Numbered from the stretch's first letter, positions 26,931 to 36,530 are shown. The stretch: 64,000 nucleotides of DNA from the human T2T-CHM13v2.0 reference genome, Homo sapiens (GCA_009914755.4 CP086569.2:6144001-6208000), one strand, 5' to 3'. Translations and numbers: made by a program. The notes: generated by a model not told the origin, from the letters alone.

Positions 26931-29900
26931 TAATATATATGGTTAACTTTGTTTCCAACCATTCAAGTACAGCAAAGTCGTCCTGTTCTTTGCCTCTTTG
27001 GCAGTCACTGGGAACTGGTAGGCCTGGTCAGTTTTACCTCAGAAGCCTGTTATGACCCTGTTCTTTTCATCAGGACAGCCCAATACATATCTTGAATGAG
27101 ATGGCTTATCAAGGCATCCCAGAAACCACTGGGTCCCATTTTTTTCTCTACCTTGCAATTTTATCCTGGAGTAGAAGATAGTCCACAAAACACACTTAGC
27201 TCTAACACAGGCTCTGTCACTTTGCTTTTTCATGGATTCTGAGAACAAACATGTAGGAGAAGATTAAGCACTTCCTCAGTGAACAGAAGGCACTGGAACC
27301 TTCATTCAATGTTTTTTTGGTTCAAATAATAGAGACTATTTTATGCCAATAGACCATTACACTTTCAAAGTGGTCACCTCTCTTCAGCTAGCAAATTCCC
27401 AATGGTATGATCCTGGATTTCTCCTGTTGCCAAACTGTGGGATCATCCTGATACAGCTGAATGCTGGGGTACCCCAGAAATGGACAAATCTCAATATTTC
27501 TTTTTTTCTGGACCCCAGAACTCCCAAACAGCTATTAAACCTATACCCTGGAATTTTCCTCAGAAAAATACAATAAATTATAAATATTAAGCTGTAACTG
27601 ATTCAGCAAGATTCTAGATTAATACATTAGCTAGTATAATTAGGCTTCATACTCTGCAGTTAGTTAATGCTGGTAGATGGTGGTTTCTCTTTTCAAGTGG
27701 GATAGGTGGATCTCAAGTTCCTGTTAAGAGGGATACTCATCTGTCTCAAGTTCAATCTATTAATGTTCCATCTCATGGGCAACTTGTAGCTAGACCTCGG
27801 CTAGAAATTACCCCTGAAGTTGAAGCTTGGAAACAATTTTTATCTTATAAAACAGGAACAGTGATGTAGATTCAATCCAGGGAAGAGAGTAATAGAAAAA
27901 AAAATGTATCACGTAGTGCATAGAGCTAACCCTGGCACTAAACTGGTAACTTACAACTAGATTCCACCAGTACCTTTCATAGATAATAAAATTGAACTAT
28001 GGGCTCATTCATCCCTCGATGAAGATTGATCTCAGCATACTACAGTAACCCATACCATTGAAACATGGTGTCAGCTAGTTTTAAATGTATTTGGATCCTC
28101 AAGAAACTATAGAAAGCTCAGATGGATACTGGATTCTCACTGAACCTGAGTCCACTCAGTTCTGGATTTCTTCTATACTGCATACTCTTCATGTGCTAAG
28201 TCAAAAGGTGACAATATTAAGGCTTGGGCGCAACAGAAAACCAGTATGATCAGGCCCTCAAATCAAATCAATAGATGTAGTCCATTTAGTAAACATGAGG
28301 CTATTATACTCAAACCCCTGATGCAGAAATGGATCTTAATACATCCTATTATGAATATAATTGAGCCCTTCCTTCACTCCAAAGTTGACATGATCAGACC
28401 CTGAAGTCAGCCTAAAACAGCCATAGTCCTTACCTGGATCTAGCCAGAATCTCAATCAGGAAGACTCTTGATTCACTTGAGAGCTGATATGATTAAACCA
28501 TTGTTACAAACTGAAACTGAAAGAATGAGACTCGGCATTCAGCATAAATTTAAAATATTGAGGCCTAGAGCCCAGACTCAAGAATGGAAAGAAAAACACT
28601 GGACCCAACCAGAAGCAGATCCAGTTAGGTACTGGTCCCAAACTGGGATGGAAACAGTGGTACCCAGGCCCCAACCTGGAGATGATAGATCCAGACCCCG
28701 AAATCACACTGAAGCTGATATCATCAAACTTTTATTTCAGTCTCAATCAGAGACAGTCACACAGTGGAGAGAACCAGTAACTCTGACAGATCACCATTGG
28801 ATACAGTCTGAAACTGAAATAGTGATGTTTTGGAACCAACCTGTGGCTGATAAGTTAAAAGACTGGATACAACATGAAGCTTATGCATTTAGACTCTGGG
28901 ACAAGTTTGAAAGTGTTAAAGTCAAATTGTGGACCCAAGCTGAAGATGATACTTTGAGACCCTGGAATCAGAAAGACATTGGTGTAATTGACCCCTGGGT
29001 ACAAGGTAAAGCTACTGTATTAACACAGTGGATGCAGGGAGTGTCTCAAGAATTACATCCATGGACACAATCTGAAACTCACACAGTCCCACTGTGGACC
29101 CAGAATGAAACTCCAATAATTTCATATCTTGGACCAAGATGTTAGCAGATACACTCACAACATGGACAAAGGCTGAATTTCAAGGGTAAACATCCTGAAG
29201 ACAGTCTGAAACTGATCCAATCATACTGTGAACTATTGCCAAATCTCCAACAGTAAATCTCTGGACACGCTCTGTATCGAATGAAGTCACATGTTGGAAC
29301 CAAGAAGAATTTCCAGCCTTATTTCCCTTGACAGAGTCTTATGGCTAAGACAGTCACACCATGGATCCAGGATAGATTTCCAACAATGAATCCCTGGGAA
29401 AAACTACAGCTGAAACCGTCATACAATTGATCCTTGATGAAATGTCACCAATAAATCCAAGGACAAAATTGCAGCCTGAATATCTAGAAGGAAATACCCG
29501 ACTCCCATCTGAATTTAATCCAGTCTCATTGTGGACCATGGCTTATTTGCCAGCAGTAAATTACTGGATACAGTTTGATACTGAAGCAATAACACTATGA
29601 ATCCAGGTTGAGTCTTCAGCAAAACATTCCTGGAAACAGTTGGAAATGGATATAATCCCACTAGGGACACATGCTGAATCACTAGTGATGAATTCATGGA
29701 TAAACTCTATCTGATATGATCATGTGTATCCAGGCTGAATCACTATTATTAAATCCTTGGACAGAGTCTGAAACTGATATAGTCACAACATGGATTCTTG
29801 TTGAAACTCTAGGAGTAAGTCCCTGGTTACCTGATATATTCCTACCATGTACCCATGCTGAACATCCACAGATATCTTGGACTCAACCATGGATTATCGC

Positions 29901-29989
29901 TGAAACTCCAGCAATGAATCCCTAGAGAAAGGCTACAGCTGATATGGTCCTATCAGGGGAATTTCAGCCAGATATCGGGTGAAATTCAC

Positions 29990-34700: not shown

Positions 34701-36530
34701 TGAAGCTCTAGTTACAGAACTTTGTTTAAAACTGGAACAGAAAAAATAAAACCTTGGGCTCAGCCAGAATTTCAAACATTAAGCACATTTACTCCCTTTG
34801 AACTTGGTAAAATAGAATCCTGGGCCAAACAGAGAACTACAACATTTATAACATGGATCCAATGTGAAACTGATGCCTCCTTCCTGTGTACCCAATCTGA
34901 AGTAGGTACAATGAGACCCCAGATCATTTCTGAAGCTGCTACAGTAAAACTATGGATCTGGACTGAAACAGGCACAATCCACCCCTGGACTCAAGGTAAA
35001 ACTAATACGATCCTTGTCTGATACACTACTGTATCAGGCTGAAATGCAGGCAGTGAAATGCTTGACCATGCCTGACATTAATACTCTGAGTGCTGGGTTT
35101 CAGACCCAAAACAGTGTAAGAAGAAATGGTACTCAACTTTATTCTCACAGAGTTACTACCCGGATGAAGCCAGAATGGCAAATAATCCAACCATTGAACC
35201 AATCTGAAAAGAATGCAGTCAGACCCTGGACCCAGTCTGAAGGTGATGTTCTGCAACCTTGGATCTATGCTGAAACCAATACAGTCAGACTCTGGGCCCA
35301 TTCTGAAACTGATAAAATAAAACAATGGACTGAGCCTGAATCTCAAGCAATTAGGACCTGACCTGAGGCAGGTATGTTGACAAGTTGGTCCCCAGCTCAA
35401 AGCGCTGCAGTTTGGACCTGGACCAAATTTGAATCTCAAATGACACACTTCTGGACCCAGAATCAAATTAGCATAAATTACCCTTGGGCTCAGCATGTAC
35501 CTGCTACAATCATACAATAGACTTATTCTGAAATTCATCCCTGGACCCACTCTGAAGCCAATACAGTGATAAGATACTGGTTCCAGATTCGAATTCAATA
35601 AGATCTTGGAACCAACCTGAAACTGAAGTATTCCAAATTTGGACTGTAAGTCAAGAAATGAAACCCTGCAACATGACTGAAATTGATACAGTCACATCTT
35701 GCTTATAGACTCAATGTGATACAGTTAGAACCTGGATTCATCCTGAAAGTTAGCTGCTCTCTCCCTGGCCCCAGACTGAAGTTGGTATATTTTGGCCCTA
35801 GACTCAGCAAAGAGTTGCTACATATCCAACCTGGACCCACCTGAAACCCAAGCAGTGAGATCCTGGATCAAGCAGGAAACTGATATAGTCAGATCTTCAT
35901 TTTACATTCACATGAATAAAGGCAGATCATGGGCTTATTCAAAATCTCAAAGAGTCAGTCCCTGGATCCAGCTGGTAGTTGATATAATTCCATCTTTTAT
36001 CCAGTCTGAATCCTTCCTACTAAGATTCTGGCCCAAGGTTCCATCTCCAGTAGTCAAAACATGGACCTTGCTTATGGGAAGAACACTCATATCTTGGATA
36101 CTGCCTGTAACCTAAGCAGACAGACACTGGATCCAGTCTGAAGCTGATATTATTGAATCCTTTGGTGTTTTTAAAGCTGGCATAGTAAGAACCTGGATCC
36201 AGCCTGAAACAGAAATACTAAGACCCAGAACCCATTATAAGGCTGATATAAGTGCATAGTTTTCTCCTCCTGAAATTGAGTCTGAGAGACACTATTAATG
36301 AGTCATTTTGGCTGCTTGTCTAAACGTGCACTCTTTTTGCCTGTAAAAAACTGTTTCTTTCCCAGATCAGTATTTTATCTCTCTGTTAACTGAGATAACT
36401 GCCTCAGAAAGCCAATATGAAATCAATTATCTCCAACCAAGCCAGCTTACAAGCATTTGGCTTCCTGGAAGAGCTGTTTACCAGCACTAAAGCAGGAAAT
36501 TAAAAATTATCCAAATAAAACAATGCCCTG

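What the first reader, a model, noticed from the sequence alone, without database searches (positions are those of the whole stretch)
28100..36250. 8-kb satellite-like array of 33/66-bp units whose both strands stay open as 11/22-residue Trp-periodic pseudo-proteins
**Periodicity.** Two alternating 33-bp subunits (TGGACCCAGGCTGAATCTTCAGCAGTAAATCCC and TGGACACAGCCTGTATCTGATACAGTCACACCA) repeat for about 8 kb with decaying identity toward the edges.

**Open frames on both strands.** The constrained composition gives ORFs of 60-225 aa in essentially every frame on both strands. They translate as apolipoprotein-like 11/22-mers: WTQAESSAVNP-WTQPVSDTVTL on the + strand, and SVSDTGCVQAFTAEDSSWVHGMT-type on the - strand. 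The TGG codon recurs every 11 residues.

**Why it is probably not coding.** Frames shift every few hundred bp and both strands are equally open. The array is therefore far more likely a non-coding satellite than a gene. It remains an unusual sequence class for a euchromatic-looking region.

**Genomic context.** It lies immediately upstream of a testis-type protease gene. A young L1 with a TSD and an LTR-like element have inserted into it, so it tolerates insertion.
Basis: partly seen in the sequence, partly recalled or inferred. Interest (0 to 1): 0.6.

Follow-up and report, generated by a model that had tools for sequence, protein, structure and literature searches.

The report
Decayed giant exon of PRSSLY pseudogene
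The "satellite" is the dead remnant of one huge protein-coding exon of PRSSLY, a sex-chromosome sperm protease-like gene already known to be broken in humans and apes, so the locus is ordinary, although the 11-amino-acid tryptophan repeat that this exon once encoded seems not to have been described.

Summary
The 33/66-bp periodicity is real: autocorrelation z is about 13-15, there are about 176 units, and all lie on the + strand at 28435-29952 and 31926-36218. They are split by an LTR-like element that carries a nested L1 3' end. It is not a satellite. The whole stretch 26968-37005 aligns colinearly with the single giant exon of mouse-lemur PRSSLY (BK059441; Hughes et al. 2022, PMC9178871). 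The downstream trypsin-like exons, up to 43604, align with the rest of that cDNA. The lemur ORF is intact over 3405 codons. About 2100 of these form roughly 190 copies of an 11-residue unit, W-[T/I]-Q-x-E-x-x-x-[V/I]-x-[P/L]. The window copy has at least 41 in-frame stops and at least 14 frame changes, and it lacks most of protease domain 1, so it is a pseudogene. "Open in every frame" is an artefact of frameshifts. Measured by unit phase, only the Trp frame is stop-poor (1.3% against 7-9%), and all 13 + strand ORFs lie in it. A profile built only from window pieces retrieves bat and sea-lion PRSSLY-type proteins. Contigs from human samples match the window at 99.8-100%. The locus is known and the interest is low. 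Two side points are open: the apparently undescribed repeat, and evidence for several old paralogous copies.

The parts
26968..37005 (+). Giant exon of the PRSSLY pseudogene. About 10.0 kb here, about 8.1 kb without the insertion. The finding (28100-36250) is its central part.
   Evidence: blastn of lemur BK059441 gives colinear blocks: nt 191-1953 to 26934-28686, then onward to nt 6607-8659 to 35035-37034, at 66-75% identity. The tblastn chain covers 26880-37031. An acceptor-like ...caag|TACAGCAAAG lies at 26968, and the exon ends ...GAAACCACAG at 37005.
26955..27125 (+). Start of the giant exon. It is the relic of the C-terminal strands of an extra upstream trypsin-like domain ("domain 0").
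   Evidence: tblastn with a non-eutherian upstream-ORF sequence from Hughes Additional file 5 (its header lies outside the part read; from the file order it is probably a marsupial) gives 51% identity over 57 aa, E=1.5e-12, with one stop. The same segment opens the lemur and sea-lion proteins.
28435..29952 (+). W-repeat array, part A: about 46 units of 33 bp, mostly of the edge subtype.
   Evidence: nhmmer hits, wrap-around alignment to the 66-mer, and 60% of unit starts still TGG. It contains the 225-aa ORF 28468-29145, which lies in the Trp frame.
29956..31914 (.). Inserted LTR-like element that interrupts the exon. It lies in reverse orientation and is flanked by the duplicated host sequence GTCCTAYCA.
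   Evidence: Periodicity is lost here and lemur colinearity jumps from 29797 to 31930. Flanking copies sit at 29947 and 31915. Assignment to an ERV-K MER11-type LTR is from memory only and was not tested.
30934..31781 (+). L1 3' fragment (ORF2 C-terminus, 3' UTR and A-rich tail) nested in the LTR-like element. Its 13-bp target-site duplication is at 30921-30933 and 31782-31794.
   Evidence: The ORF 30944-31462 matches LINE-1 ORF2p residues 1104-1275, E=6e-113. TSD. Poly-A run at 31656-31695.
31926..36218 (+). W-repeat array, part B: about 130 units. The 66-bp A/B alternation is strongest at 32000-34200.
   Evidence: nhmmer, sliding autocorrelation up to 0.62 at lag 66, and 64% of unit starts still TGG.
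36219..37005 (+). Non-repeat tail of the giant exon: a Ser/Pro/Cys-rich linker that leads into protease domain 1.
   Evidence: Lies within the single blastn block that aligns lemur nt 6607-8659 to window 35035-37034 at 74.8%. It is 87-90% identical to the human, chimp and rhesus models.
37573..37744 (+). Exon encoding the start of trypsin-like domain 1 (EFPW...). The rest of domain 1, lemur nt 8825-9344, has no counterpart in the window.
   Evidence: blastn 85.8%. tblastn 52% with one stop. Nothing aligns between 37744 and 38135.
38135..38330 (+). Exon covering the linker between the two trypsin-like domains; frameshifted.
   Evidence: blastn 81.7%. Two tblastn HSPs in different frames, with one stop.
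39728..39862 (+). Exon encoding the start of trypsin-like domain 2; frameshifted.
   Evidence: blastn 77.8%. Two tblastn HSPs in frames 1 and 2.
41040..41296 (+). Exon in the middle of trypsin-like domain 2 (NDLALLLL).
   Evidence: blastn 84.6% and tblastn 81%. The concatenated domain-2 exons hit Pfam Trypsin PF00089, E=8.2e-10.
42538..42673 (+). Exon of trypsin-like domain 2.
   Evidence: blastn 84.6% and tblastn 71%.
43212..43604 (+). Last exon and 3' UTR of the PRSSLY pseudogene.
   Evidence: blastn 77.4% to lemur nt 10046-10429. tblastn 69% with one stop.

Best explanation
**What it is.** The array is the decayed giant exon of a PRSSLY pseudogene (protease, serine-like, Y-linked).

**Ancestral state.** In the ancestral functional gene one exon of about 8-10 kb encoded the end of a trypsin-like domain. 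That was followed by about 190 tandem 11-residue units, W-[T/I]-Q-x-E-x-x-x-[V/I]-x-[P/L], often organised as 22-mers. Small downstream exons then encoded two further trypsin-like domains, which lack the catalytic serine.

**Source of the periodicity.** The 33/66-bp DNA periodicity is the footprint of that 11/22-residue protein repeat. The repeat was built by tandem duplication of 33/66-bp units inside a coding exon.

**Decay in this lineage.** The gene lost function in anthropoid primates. Small indels have since shifted the old Trp frame among the three genomic frames, and stop codons, an LTR-like element and an L1 have accumulated. Most of protease domain 1 was deleted.

**Why many ORFs survive.** The consensus unit is stop-free in exactly one frame on each strand, so pieces between lesions remain open. 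The sequence now does nothing as a protein. At most it is a weakly transcribed pseudogene, as reported for the human locus.

**Shown versus inferred.**
- Shown: homology, colinearity, the fossil frame, the disabling lesions and the insertions.
- Inferred: Y linkage of this particular copy, the time of inactivation, and the absence of any residual RNA-level role.
For: **Colinearity with an intact gene.**
- Lemur PRSSLY cDNA aligns colinearly to window 26934-43604 on the + strand. The alignment runs exon by exon, with the array inside the giant exon.
- The lemur ORF is intact over 3405 codons. The window shows 41 in-frame stops and 14 frame changes along the tblastn chain.

**The repeat in the functional protein.**
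- Lemur Trp-Trp spacing is 11 residues 106 times and 22 residues 19 times.
- Protein autocorrelation peaks at lags 22, 44, 11 and 33.
- The unit logo is W100 T50 Q48 x E59 x x x V50 x P36.

**Fossil reading frame in the window.**
- Stops in the Trp phase are 24 of 1856 (1.29%), against 7.3% and 8.75% in the other + phases. The binomial p against a 6% expectation is 2e-24.
- All 13 + strand ORFs of 60 aa or more are 70-100% in that phase. Seven of the 10 - strand ORFs lie in the single stop-free antisense phase.

**Protease part.**
- The downstream exons hit Pfam Trypsin, E=8.2e-10. The lemur C-terminus has two Trypsin domains, E=3.6e-46.

**Independent retrieval of PRSSLY relatives.** An HMM built only from nine window Trp-frame pieces was searched against 1.84 billion representatives.
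- It finds a sea-lion protein, XP_035581842, at E=2.8e-35.
- It finds P0006, an uncharacterised Rousettus protein (XP_015990595.2), at E=1.7e-21. P0006 has two Pfam Trypsin stretches, and its cluster also holds DAZ89702.1, "Y-linked serine-like protease [Rousettus aegyptiacus]".
- The top hits show 11/22-residue periodicity and the same consensus.

**Literature.** Hughes et al. 2022 (PMC9178871) describe the giant single exon, its lack of identifiable domains, Ka/Ks of about 1 in the upstream ORF, and pseudogenes on the human, chimp and rhesus Y. Their human, chimp and rhesus models are 87-90% identical to the window.

**Periodicity in other species.** The mouse Prssly upstream ORF shows it. 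So does a fragment of a species whose name was not in the part read.
Against: - This copy is only 88.6% identical to the published human model, although contigs from human samples match it at 99.8-100%. It is therefore a different and apparently older paralog whose chromosomal location I could not check.
- Variation among units is not concentrated at third codon positions. Mean information content by codon position is 0.61, 0.71 and 0.80 in the window and 0.58, 0.72 and 0.59 in lemur. The classical purifying-selection signature is therefore absent even in the intact gene, which is consistent with the published Ka/Ks of about 1. The coding argument rests on frame openness and orthology rather than on dN/dS.
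- Two word-indexed protein searches returned nothing.
Confidence: 0.95

Rival explanations
1. It is a non-coding satellite or minisatellite: a 33/66-bp tandem repeat maintained by unequal crossing-over, whose ORFs are accidents of a constrained composition.
For: The periodicity is strong. ORFs occur on both strands. The array tolerates transposon insertion. Identity between units shows no third-position relaxation.
Against: - The array is colinear, at orthologous positions, with an intact 3405-codon ORF in lemur.
- Only one unit phase is stop-depleted.
- The units are highly diverged and not homogenised: Tandem Repeats Finder finds nothing, and identity at lag 33 is only 0.42.
- A protein profile built from the array finds PRSSLY-type proteins in other mammalian orders.
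- The array is flanked by splice-site-bounded gene structure.
- The window does contain a true satellite, the 37-bp array at 56825-61930, and it looks quite different, with about 80% identity between copies.
Confidence: 0.02
2. The locus is still functional at the protein level. One or more of the surviving ORFs, for example the 225-aa ORF at 28468-29145, would be translated as a truncated Trp-repeat protein or as micropeptides.
For: A 225-aa ORF and several ORFs of 100-120 aa survive in the ancestral frame. Hughes et al. report low-level transcription of primate PRSSLY pseudogenes.
Against: - There are 41 stops and at least 14 frame changes.
- Two transposon insertions lie in the exon.
- The core of protease domain 1 is deleted.
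- The 225-aa ORF starts at a TTG with no upstream exon context. Neither it nor the 121-aa ORF is on record as a called product.
- Published expression is 0.1-0.7 TPM with "no ORF in any transcript".
- Surviving TGG at unit starts has dropped to 60-64%, against 78% in lemur.
Confidence: 0.02
3. The dead exon has been co-opted as a non-coding RNA or regulatory element, for example a testis lncRNA, or it acts with the neighbouring TSPY-exon-1 CpG island. Its repetitive structure would then matter at the RNA or DNA level.
For: Low-level transcription is published for the human, chimp and rhesus pseudogenes. A CpG island with a TSPY exon-1 homolog lies 0.9 kb downstream. Near-identical paralogous copies persist in human genomes.
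Against: Nothing here indicates constraint. Insertions and deletions are tolerated. Divergence between the primate copies is about 10-13% across the non-repeat tail, which is as expected for neutral Y-type sequence. No RNA family or expression data were examined.
Confidence: 0.05

Closest known systems
[quoted passage not shown] 2022, BMC Biol 20:133, PMC9178871)
   Same: The gene and exon layout are the same and the state is the same: severely truncated ORFs and multiple frameshifts. The window is 87-90% identical to the three published models over about 800 nt of the exon's 3' end. It has the same flanking trypsin-like exons.
   Different: It is identical to none of the three models, which are themselves 9-12% apart. 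It lacks most of protease domain 1, which the human and chimp models retain. Contigs from human samples match the window at 99.8-100%, so it appears to be a separate copy from the published human model.
Intact PRSSLY of mouse lemur (BK059441), with the mouse, Rousettus and sea-lion homologs
   Same: It is colinear over the whole gene and has the same 11/22-residue Trp repeat. The consensus W-T-Q-x-E-x-D-T-V-R-P recurs in bat, sea lion and a mouse-like protein.
   Different: Those genes keep one open frame, 3405 codons in lemur. The window copy is broken by stops, frameshifts, a deletion and two transposons.
PRSS55, the closest autosomal paralog according to Hughes et al.
   Same: It has a trypsin-like domain and testis-specific expression (paper).
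   Different: Hughes et al. treat the giant single exon as a distinctive feature of PRSSLY and do not report one in PRSS55; this comes from the paper and was not tested here.
Giant repeat-coding exons such as that of MUC16
   Same: A single exon of about 10 kb built from tandemly duplicated coding units. The comparison is made in the paper.
   Different: The unit is 11 residues and Trp-anchored, not a mucin Ser/Thr/Pro repeat or a SEA-domain repeat. No sequence relationship was tested.
Phage tail tape-measure proteins with Trp every 11 residues
   Same: The window-derived profile weakly hits three proteins, P0036, P0037 and P0043, at E of about 1e-4. PHROGs assign them to tape-measure families. 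They show Trp spacing of 11 and autocorrelation peaks at 11, 22 and 44.
   Different: Only the periodic Trp is shared. The rest of the unit differs, with W-x-x-x-T-x-x-x-I in the tape-measure proteins against W-T-Q-x-E-x-x-x-V-x-P here. The PRSSLY unit is Pro-rich and is unlikely to form the long helices of tape-measure proteins. This is most likely convergence or a profile artefact.
Apolipoprotein, perilipin and alpha-synuclein 11/22-mer amphipathic-helix repeats
   Same: An 11/22-residue period with frequent Pro at unit boundaries.
   Different: There is no Pfam match for either window ORFs or the lemur repeat and no PDB relative. The AlphaFold2 model has no helices and a pLDDT of 40. The conserved positions are W, Q, E and V, not an amphipathic Lys/Glu/Leu pattern.
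Classical satellite DNA
   Same: A tandem short-period array several kb long.
   Different: See the rival explanation. The units are diverged and not homogenised, the array lies inside a gene, a fossil reading frame is present, and orthologous positions are conserved with lemur.

Membership tests
PRSSLY gene family (as a pseudogene copy) | Colinear homology to PRSSLY across the giant upstream exon and the downstream exons | tested here: met
   Lemur BK059441 nt 191-10429 aligns in order to window 26934-43604 on the + strand. The tblastn chain has 19 HSPs covering 2664 aligned residues.
PRSSLY gene family (as a pseudogene copy) | Trypsin-like serine-protease domain(s) downstream of the long ORF | tested here: met
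   The concatenated window exons 39739-43460 hit PF00089 at E=8.2e-10 and 39.3 bits, above the cut-off of 20.6. Only the first exon of domain 1 is present.
PRSSLY gene family (as a pseudogene copy) | Most of the ORF lies in one very large exon with no known domain | tested here: met
   The exon spans 26968-37005. There are no Pfam hits for its ORFs or for the lemur repeat region.
PRSSLY gene family (as a pseudogene copy) | Y-chromosomal location in eutherians | not testable with these tools
   No primate genome map was available.
Functional PRSSLY gene | A single uninterrupted reading frame through the giant exon and the protease domains | tested here: not met
   There are 41 in-frame stops and at least 14 frame changes, a 1.96-kb transposon insertion, and lemur nt 8825-9344 is missing.
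Satellite or minisatellite DNA | A non-coding tandem array with no reading-frame asymmetry | tested here: not met
   Stop frequency by unit phase is 1.29% against 7.3% and 8.75% on the + strand. The consensus is open in one frame per strand.
Satellite or minisatellite DNA | Homogenised head-to-tail copies detectable as a tandem repeat | tested here: not met
   Tandem Repeats Finder finds no array in 26000-39000. Identity at lags 33 and 66 is 0.42 and 0.44. The real satellite at 56825-61930 shows about 80% identity between copies.
Apolipoprotein-type 11/22-mer amphipathic helix repeats | Sequence membership (Pfam apolipoprotein, perilipin or synuclein models) or predicted helical repeats | tested here: not met
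   No Pfam family was found at E<=1 for window ORFs or for 438 aa of lemur repeat. The AlphaFold2 model has no helix, but at pLDDT 40 this is uninformative. No PDB sequence relative was found.
Phage tape-measure protein repeats | Significant sequence homology beyond the periodic Trp | tested here: inconclusive
   Only E of about 1e-4 to 7e-4 against 1.84 billion proteins for P0036, P0037 and P0043. The unit consensus differs apart from W1 and an aliphatic residue at position 9. PHROGs confirm they are tape-measure proteins.

The most novel reading that the evidence does not exclude
**First claim: an undescribed protein repeat.**
- The "domain-less" giant exon of PRSSLY would be a previously undescribed repeat family.
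- It has about 190 copies of an 11-residue Trp-anchored unit, W-T-Q-x-E-x-D-T-V-R-P, often paired into 22-mers.
- The period and anchor residues are kept in primates, rodents, a bat and a sea lion, even though the rest of the unit evolves at Ka/Ks of about 1.
- That would mean selection acts on the periodic scaffold and on ORF length, not on the sequence.

**Second claim: old amplification of the locus.**
- The human lineage would carry at least two old families of PRSSLY-pseudogene copies.
- This copy is 11% diverged from the published human model.
- It is itself present as variants that are 96.5-100% identical.
- This suggests that a PRSSLY-TSPY unit was amplified on the ancestral catarrhine Y before it decayed.
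Probability: 0.45. Interest if true: 0.4.

Novelty: already known. Interest (0 to 1): 0.22.

Why it matters
- **For the scan.** This is a useful negative. A striking "satellite with open frames on both strands" turns out to be a pseudogenised repeat-coding exon. The diagnostic test, stop density by repeat phase rather than by genomic frame, can be reused.
- **The repeat itself.** PRSSLY is the only known ancestral X-Y gene kept on the Y and lost from the X, and its giant exon has been described as having no identifiable domain. The exon is in fact a regular 11/22-residue Trp repeat shared across several eutherian orders. That gives a concrete handle for structure prediction, binding assays and repeat-number evolution in a protein whose function is unknown.
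- **Several diverged copies in human-derived data.** If confirmed, this bears on how the PRSSLY-TSPY neighbourhood was amplified and lost on primate Y chromosomes.

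Tried and rejected
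- **Tandem Repeats Finder** on 26-39 kb found only poly-A and a TG run. The units are too diverged.
- **Pfam on seven array ORFs** gave nothing meaningful. Pfam on single short exons and on the L1 and TSPY ORFs gave nothing at E<=0.01. It worked only after the exons were concatenated.
- **Word-indexed protein searches** returned no hits, both with the 225-aa window ORF and with 800 aa of lemur repeat. The exhaustive profile search was needed.
- **My first guess** was that the array might be the ortholog of mouse Teyorf1. I dropped it once the literature showed that PRSSLY itself carries the giant exon and that Teyorf1 is a mouse-lineage acquisition.
- **AlphaFold2** on a nine-row alignment of window Trp-frame pieces gave pLDDT 40.2 and pTM 0.16 with no secondary structure. 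This is uninformative: the alignment is shallow and the sequences are decayed.
- **Codon-position test among units.** I expected third-position relaxation and found none, in the window or in the intact lemur gene. It therefore cannot discriminate here.
- **Search for the rest of "domain 0" or other PRSSLY pieces** elsewhere in the window gave nothing outside 26880-43650.
- **Test for a 20-kb TSPY-array-type tandem organisation** of the window found none. The only large self-similarity is the 37-bp satellite.
- **Species assignment from the three published primate models** failed, because the relationships are star-like at 9-13%. It was resolved only through exact ORF look-ups in public assemblies.
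- **The tail of a non-eutherian (probably marsupial) homolog** shows only sparse P-W motifs and no clear 33-nt period: lag 33 is 0.325 against 0.32 for other lags. The origin of the array before eutherians remains open.

Full report
**1. The observation**

The 33/66-bp periodicity is real.
- Over 28100-36250, base autocorrelation is 0.392 at lag 66 and 0.381 at lag 33, against a median of 0.258. Five control regions of the window show nothing comparable.
- A sliding profile places the signal at about 28100-29900 and 31800-36300, with a gap between them.
Of these, 76 are on the + strand and one, at E=6.0, is on the - strand. The only hit elsewhere is at chance level.
- With the gap removed, the array is 5811 bp, about 176 units. 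Z is 12.6 at lag 33 and 14.7 at lag 66. Thirty-seven percent of successive TGG triplets are exactly 33 nt apart, against 2% in a control.
- Tandem Repeats Finder sees nothing, because the copies are too diverged.

The gap is a transposon insertion.
- An LTR-like element lies at about 29956-31914, flanked by duplicated host sequence GTCCTAYCA.
- Nested within it is an L1 3' end at 30934-31781. The ORF at 30944-31462 matches LINE-1 ORF2p residues 1104-1275 at E=6e-113.
- The L1 has a 13-bp target-site duplication, AAAGACAGGCGTA, at 30921 and 31782.

The factual part of the finding is therefore confirmed.

**2. Context**

Six-frame translation downstream of the array shows trypsin-like exon fragments on the + strand: EFPWIVAV at about 37.6 kb and NDLALLLL at about 41.1 kb.

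At 44.5-45.0 kb there is a CpG island (GC 0.60) that encodes a TSPY exon-1-like peptide.

That pairing pointed to the mammalian Y chromosome and to PRSSLY. A literature search led to Hughes et al. 2022, BMC Biol 20:133 (PMC9178871). They report the following:
- PRSSLY is a testis-specific, Y-linked, serine-protease-like gene.
- Its ORF lies mostly in one giant exon. [quoted passage not shown] **3. Identity of the array**

I took the mouse-lemur cDNA (BK059441, 10429 nt) from their Additional file 9.

It contains one intact frame of 3405 codons.

blastn aligns it colinearly to the window on the + strand:

| Lemur nt | Window position | Note |
|---|---|---|
| 191-1953 | 26934-28686 | start of giant exon |
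| 2339-3511 | 28652-29797 | array before the insertion |
| 3568-6528 | 31930-35012 | register is ambiguous in the most repetitive centre |
| 6607-8659 | 35035-37034 | end of giant exon |
| later exons | 37580-37744, 38139-38316, 39728-39862, 41040-41292, 42538-42667, 43216-43604 | trypsin-like exons and 3' UTR |

- The giant exon is window 26968-37005. It has an acceptor-like caag|TACAGC and ends ...CCACAG.
The "protease gene immediately downstream" is the rest of the same gene.
- The concatenated downstream exons hit Pfam Trypsin at E=8.2e-10. The lemur C-terminus has two Trypsin domains at E=3.6e-46.
- Along the tblastn chain the window has 41 in-frame stops and 14 frame changes.
- Lemur nt 8825-9344, the core of protease domain 1, has no counterpart in the window.

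This is a pseudogene.

**4. Where the periodicity comes from**

In the lemur protein, residues of about 500-2620 form a regular repeat.
- Trp-Trp spacing is 11 residues 106 times and 22 residues 19 times.
- Protein autocorrelation peaks at lags 22, 44, 11 and 33.
- The unit logo is W(100%)-T/I-Q(48%)-x-E(59%)-x-x-x-V/I(70%)-x-P/L.
- A wrap-around alignment finds 192 units in lemur, 78% of which start with TGG. The window has 45 + 125 units, of which 60-64% start with TGG.

The same period appears in other species.
- The mouse Prssly upstream ORF shows it: lags 33 and 66 give 0.36 against a median of 0.27, and 59% of Trp gaps are multiples of 11.
- A fragment from the entry that precedes mouse in Additional file 9, whose name was not in the part read, shows it as well.

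So the 33/66-bp DNA period is the footprint of an 11/22-residue protein repeat.

**5. The "both strands open in every frame" argument**

- The 66-mer consensus is stop-free in exactly one frame on each strand.
- I aligned the array cyclically to the consensus and counted stops by repeat phase instead of by genomic frame.
- The Trp phase has 24 stops in 1856 triplets (1.29%). The other two + phases have 7.3% and 8.75%, and the - strand has 3.15-5.8%. The binomial p against a 6% expectation is 2e-24.
- All 13 + strand ORFs of 60 aa or more within the two array segments have 70-100% of their codons in the Trp phase. Seven of the 10 - strand ORFs are in the one stop-free antisense phase.
- The Trp phase moves among the three genomic frames, which breaks the two array segments into 45 frame-consistent stretches. 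That movement is why ORFs appear "in every frame".
- The ORFs are fragments of one ancestral frame plus its trivially open antisense partner.

The classical dN/dS-type signal is absent.
- Conservation among units is not lower at third codon positions. Mean information content by codon position is 0.61, 0.71 and 0.80 in the window and 0.58, 0.72 and 0.59 in lemur.
- This agrees with the published Ka/Ks of about 1.
- It means that the evidence for coding ancestry is frame openness and orthology, not codon-position bias.

**6. Independent confirmation**

I aligned nine stop-free Trp-phase pieces of the window (A1) and searched the profile against 1.84 billion representative proteins. There were 46 hits.

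The best are long mammalian proteins with many matched stretches.
- P0003 is XP_035581842 of the sea lion Zalophus, at E=2.8e-35.
- P0006, at E=1.7e-21, is an uncharacterised Rousettus protein (XP_015990595.2). Its cluster also holds DAZ89702.1, [quoted passage not shown]. Both P0006 and DAZ89702.1 (P0062) have two Pfam Trypsin stretches downstream of the repeats.
- The top mammalian hits have autocorrelation maxima at 11, 22, 33 and 44 residues. They share the consensus W-T-Q-[P/S/T]-E-x-D-T-V-R-P.

The weak tail of the hit list, at E of about 1e-4, consists of phage tape-measure proteins (PHROGs).
- These also carry a Trp every 11 residues.
- Their unit is otherwise different.
- I regard this as convergence.

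The repeat has no Pfam family and no sequence relative in the PDB.

An AlphaFold2 run on the window pieces was uninformative, with pLDDT 40.

**7. Which genome, which copy**

Three window ORFs occur verbatim among ORFs called on contigs of a "human gut metagenome" project (PRJEB21933) and on Logan assemblies.

| Contig | Identity to window | Length compared |
|---|---|---|
| L010 | 100% | 1764 bp |
| L004 | 99.96% | 2313 bp |
| L002 | 99.8% | 4108 bp |

The window is therefore human or extremely close to human, and the metagenome contigs are host DNA.

Other contigs from the same project are only 96.5-99.5% identical. Of 140 variant sites, 35 recur with the same base in different samples. That is the pattern expected from paralog-specific differences, so this segment seems to exist in several copies.

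The window is only 88.6%, 89.7% and 87.3% identical to the published human, chimp and rhesus models. Those models are themselves 9-12% apart. A difference of 9% is far too large for human-chimp orthologs. More than one old PRSSLY-pseudogene lineage probably exists on catarrhine Y chromosomes. I could not map any of this to chromosomes.

**8. Mechanism**

Shown:
- A giant exon built of 33/66-bp coding units.
- Loss of the reading frame through indels, stops, a deletion and two nested transposon insertions.
- ORF fragments that persist because the unit is stop-free in one frame per strand.

Inferred:
- The array arose by tandem duplication inside the tail that follows an upstream trypsin-like "domain 0". 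The exon begins with the last strands of such a domain, 51% identical to a non-eutherian, probably marsupial, homolog at E=1.5e-12. The tail of that homolog has only scattered P-W motifs.
- Expansion was most recent in the centre, where the 66-bp alternation is strongest and window-lemur register is ambiguous.
- The present sequence has no protein function.

The trypsin-like domains of lemur PRSSLY appear to lack the catalytic serine (GDLGAP and TPGSAV in place of GDSGGP). I read this from the sequence, so even the intact protein looks like a pseudoprotease.

**9. Verdict**

- The interpretation as a satellite is wrong in kind, but right in that nothing is encoded now.
- The object is a PRSSLY pseudogene, a class already published for human and other primates, so both novelty and interest are low.
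- Two by-products may deserve a specialist's look. One is the regular 11/22-residue Trp repeat, which the 2022 paper does not mention. A full-text search found no paper linking PRSSLY with tandem repeats or tryptophan, though the library searched is limited. The other is the evidence for multiple diverged copies in human-derived sequence.

Noticed in passing
window 56825-61930: A genuine tandem satellite with a 37-bp period. It is about 5.1 kb long with about 80% identity between copies, and it produces long spurious - strand ORFs (...YEYNIYVGI...). It is a useful contrast to the PRSSLY array.
   Followed up: partly
window 44548-45021 (+), CpG island 44000-45050: A TSPY exon-1 homolog lies about 0.9 kb downstream of the PRSSLY 3' end. 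Exons 2-6 were not found, so it looks like a truncated TSPY pseudogene that retains its CpG island.
   Followed up: partly
window 26955-27125 (+): The giant exon opens with the last strands of an additional trypsin-like domain (VQQ..PVLC.FGSHWELVGLVS...). This segment is conserved with a non-eutherian (probably marsupial) homolog and with sea-lion and lemur PRSSLY. The rest of that domain was not found upstream in the window. The published gene models appear to start inside this domain.
   Followed up: partly
window 31838-36622 compared with loci L001-L011: Contigs from many human gut-metagenome samples (host DNA) match this segment at 96.5-100%. Thirty-five of 140 variant sites are shared between samples, which suggests several paralogous copies of this pseudogene segment in human genomes.
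   Followed up: partly
window 36186-37034 compared with the human, chimp and rhesus models in Hughes 2022 Additional file 9: All four anthropoid sequences are 9-13% apart in a star-like pattern, and the human and chimp models are only 90.9% identical. That is too diverged for orthologs and implies old paralogous PRSSLY-pseudogene lineages. This is unexplained.
   Followed up: partly
window 37744-38135: The exons for the core of protease domain 1 (lemur cDNA nt 8825-9344) are absent from this copy, although the human and chimp models retain them. This is a copy-specific deletion.
   Followed up: partly
lemur PRSSLY protein, domain-1 and domain-2 active-site regions: Both downstream trypsin-like domains have the catalytic-serine motif replaced (GDLGAP and TPGSAV). 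PRSSLY therefore looks like a pseudoprotease even where the gene is intact. This was read by eye and was not checked against a structural alignment.
   Followed up: no
proteins P0036, P0037 and P0043 (profile search): Phage tail tape-measure proteins carry a Trp every 11 residues, with autocorrelation peaks at 11, 22 and 44, and they weakly match the PRSSLY repeat profile at E of about 1e-4. This is probably convergent.
   Followed up: partly
window 21273-21452 (-) and 50810-50860 (+): The L1 ORF2p C-terminus ([17 protein letters not shown]) gives weak chance matches to the Trp repeat. This is a possible source of false positives when searching for this repeat in genomes.
   Followed up: no
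window 29947-29972 and 31915-31940: The duplication flanking the LTR-like element may extend to about 24 imperfect bases (GTCCTAYCARGGAAT..CAG.C.GA). That is longer than the 4-6 bp expected for an ERV LTR, so the insertion mechanism and exact boundaries are unresolved.
   Followed up: no
protein P0001 (3058 aa, JGI/IMG contig of 13.5 kb): This is a mouse-like PRSSLY giant-exon ORF. Its end is identical to mouse Prssly, yet the ORF is about twice as long as the upstream ORF of about 1470 aa in the published mouse cDNA KJ780361. It is either another Mus lineage or an ORF that extends upstream of the annotated start.
   Followed up: no
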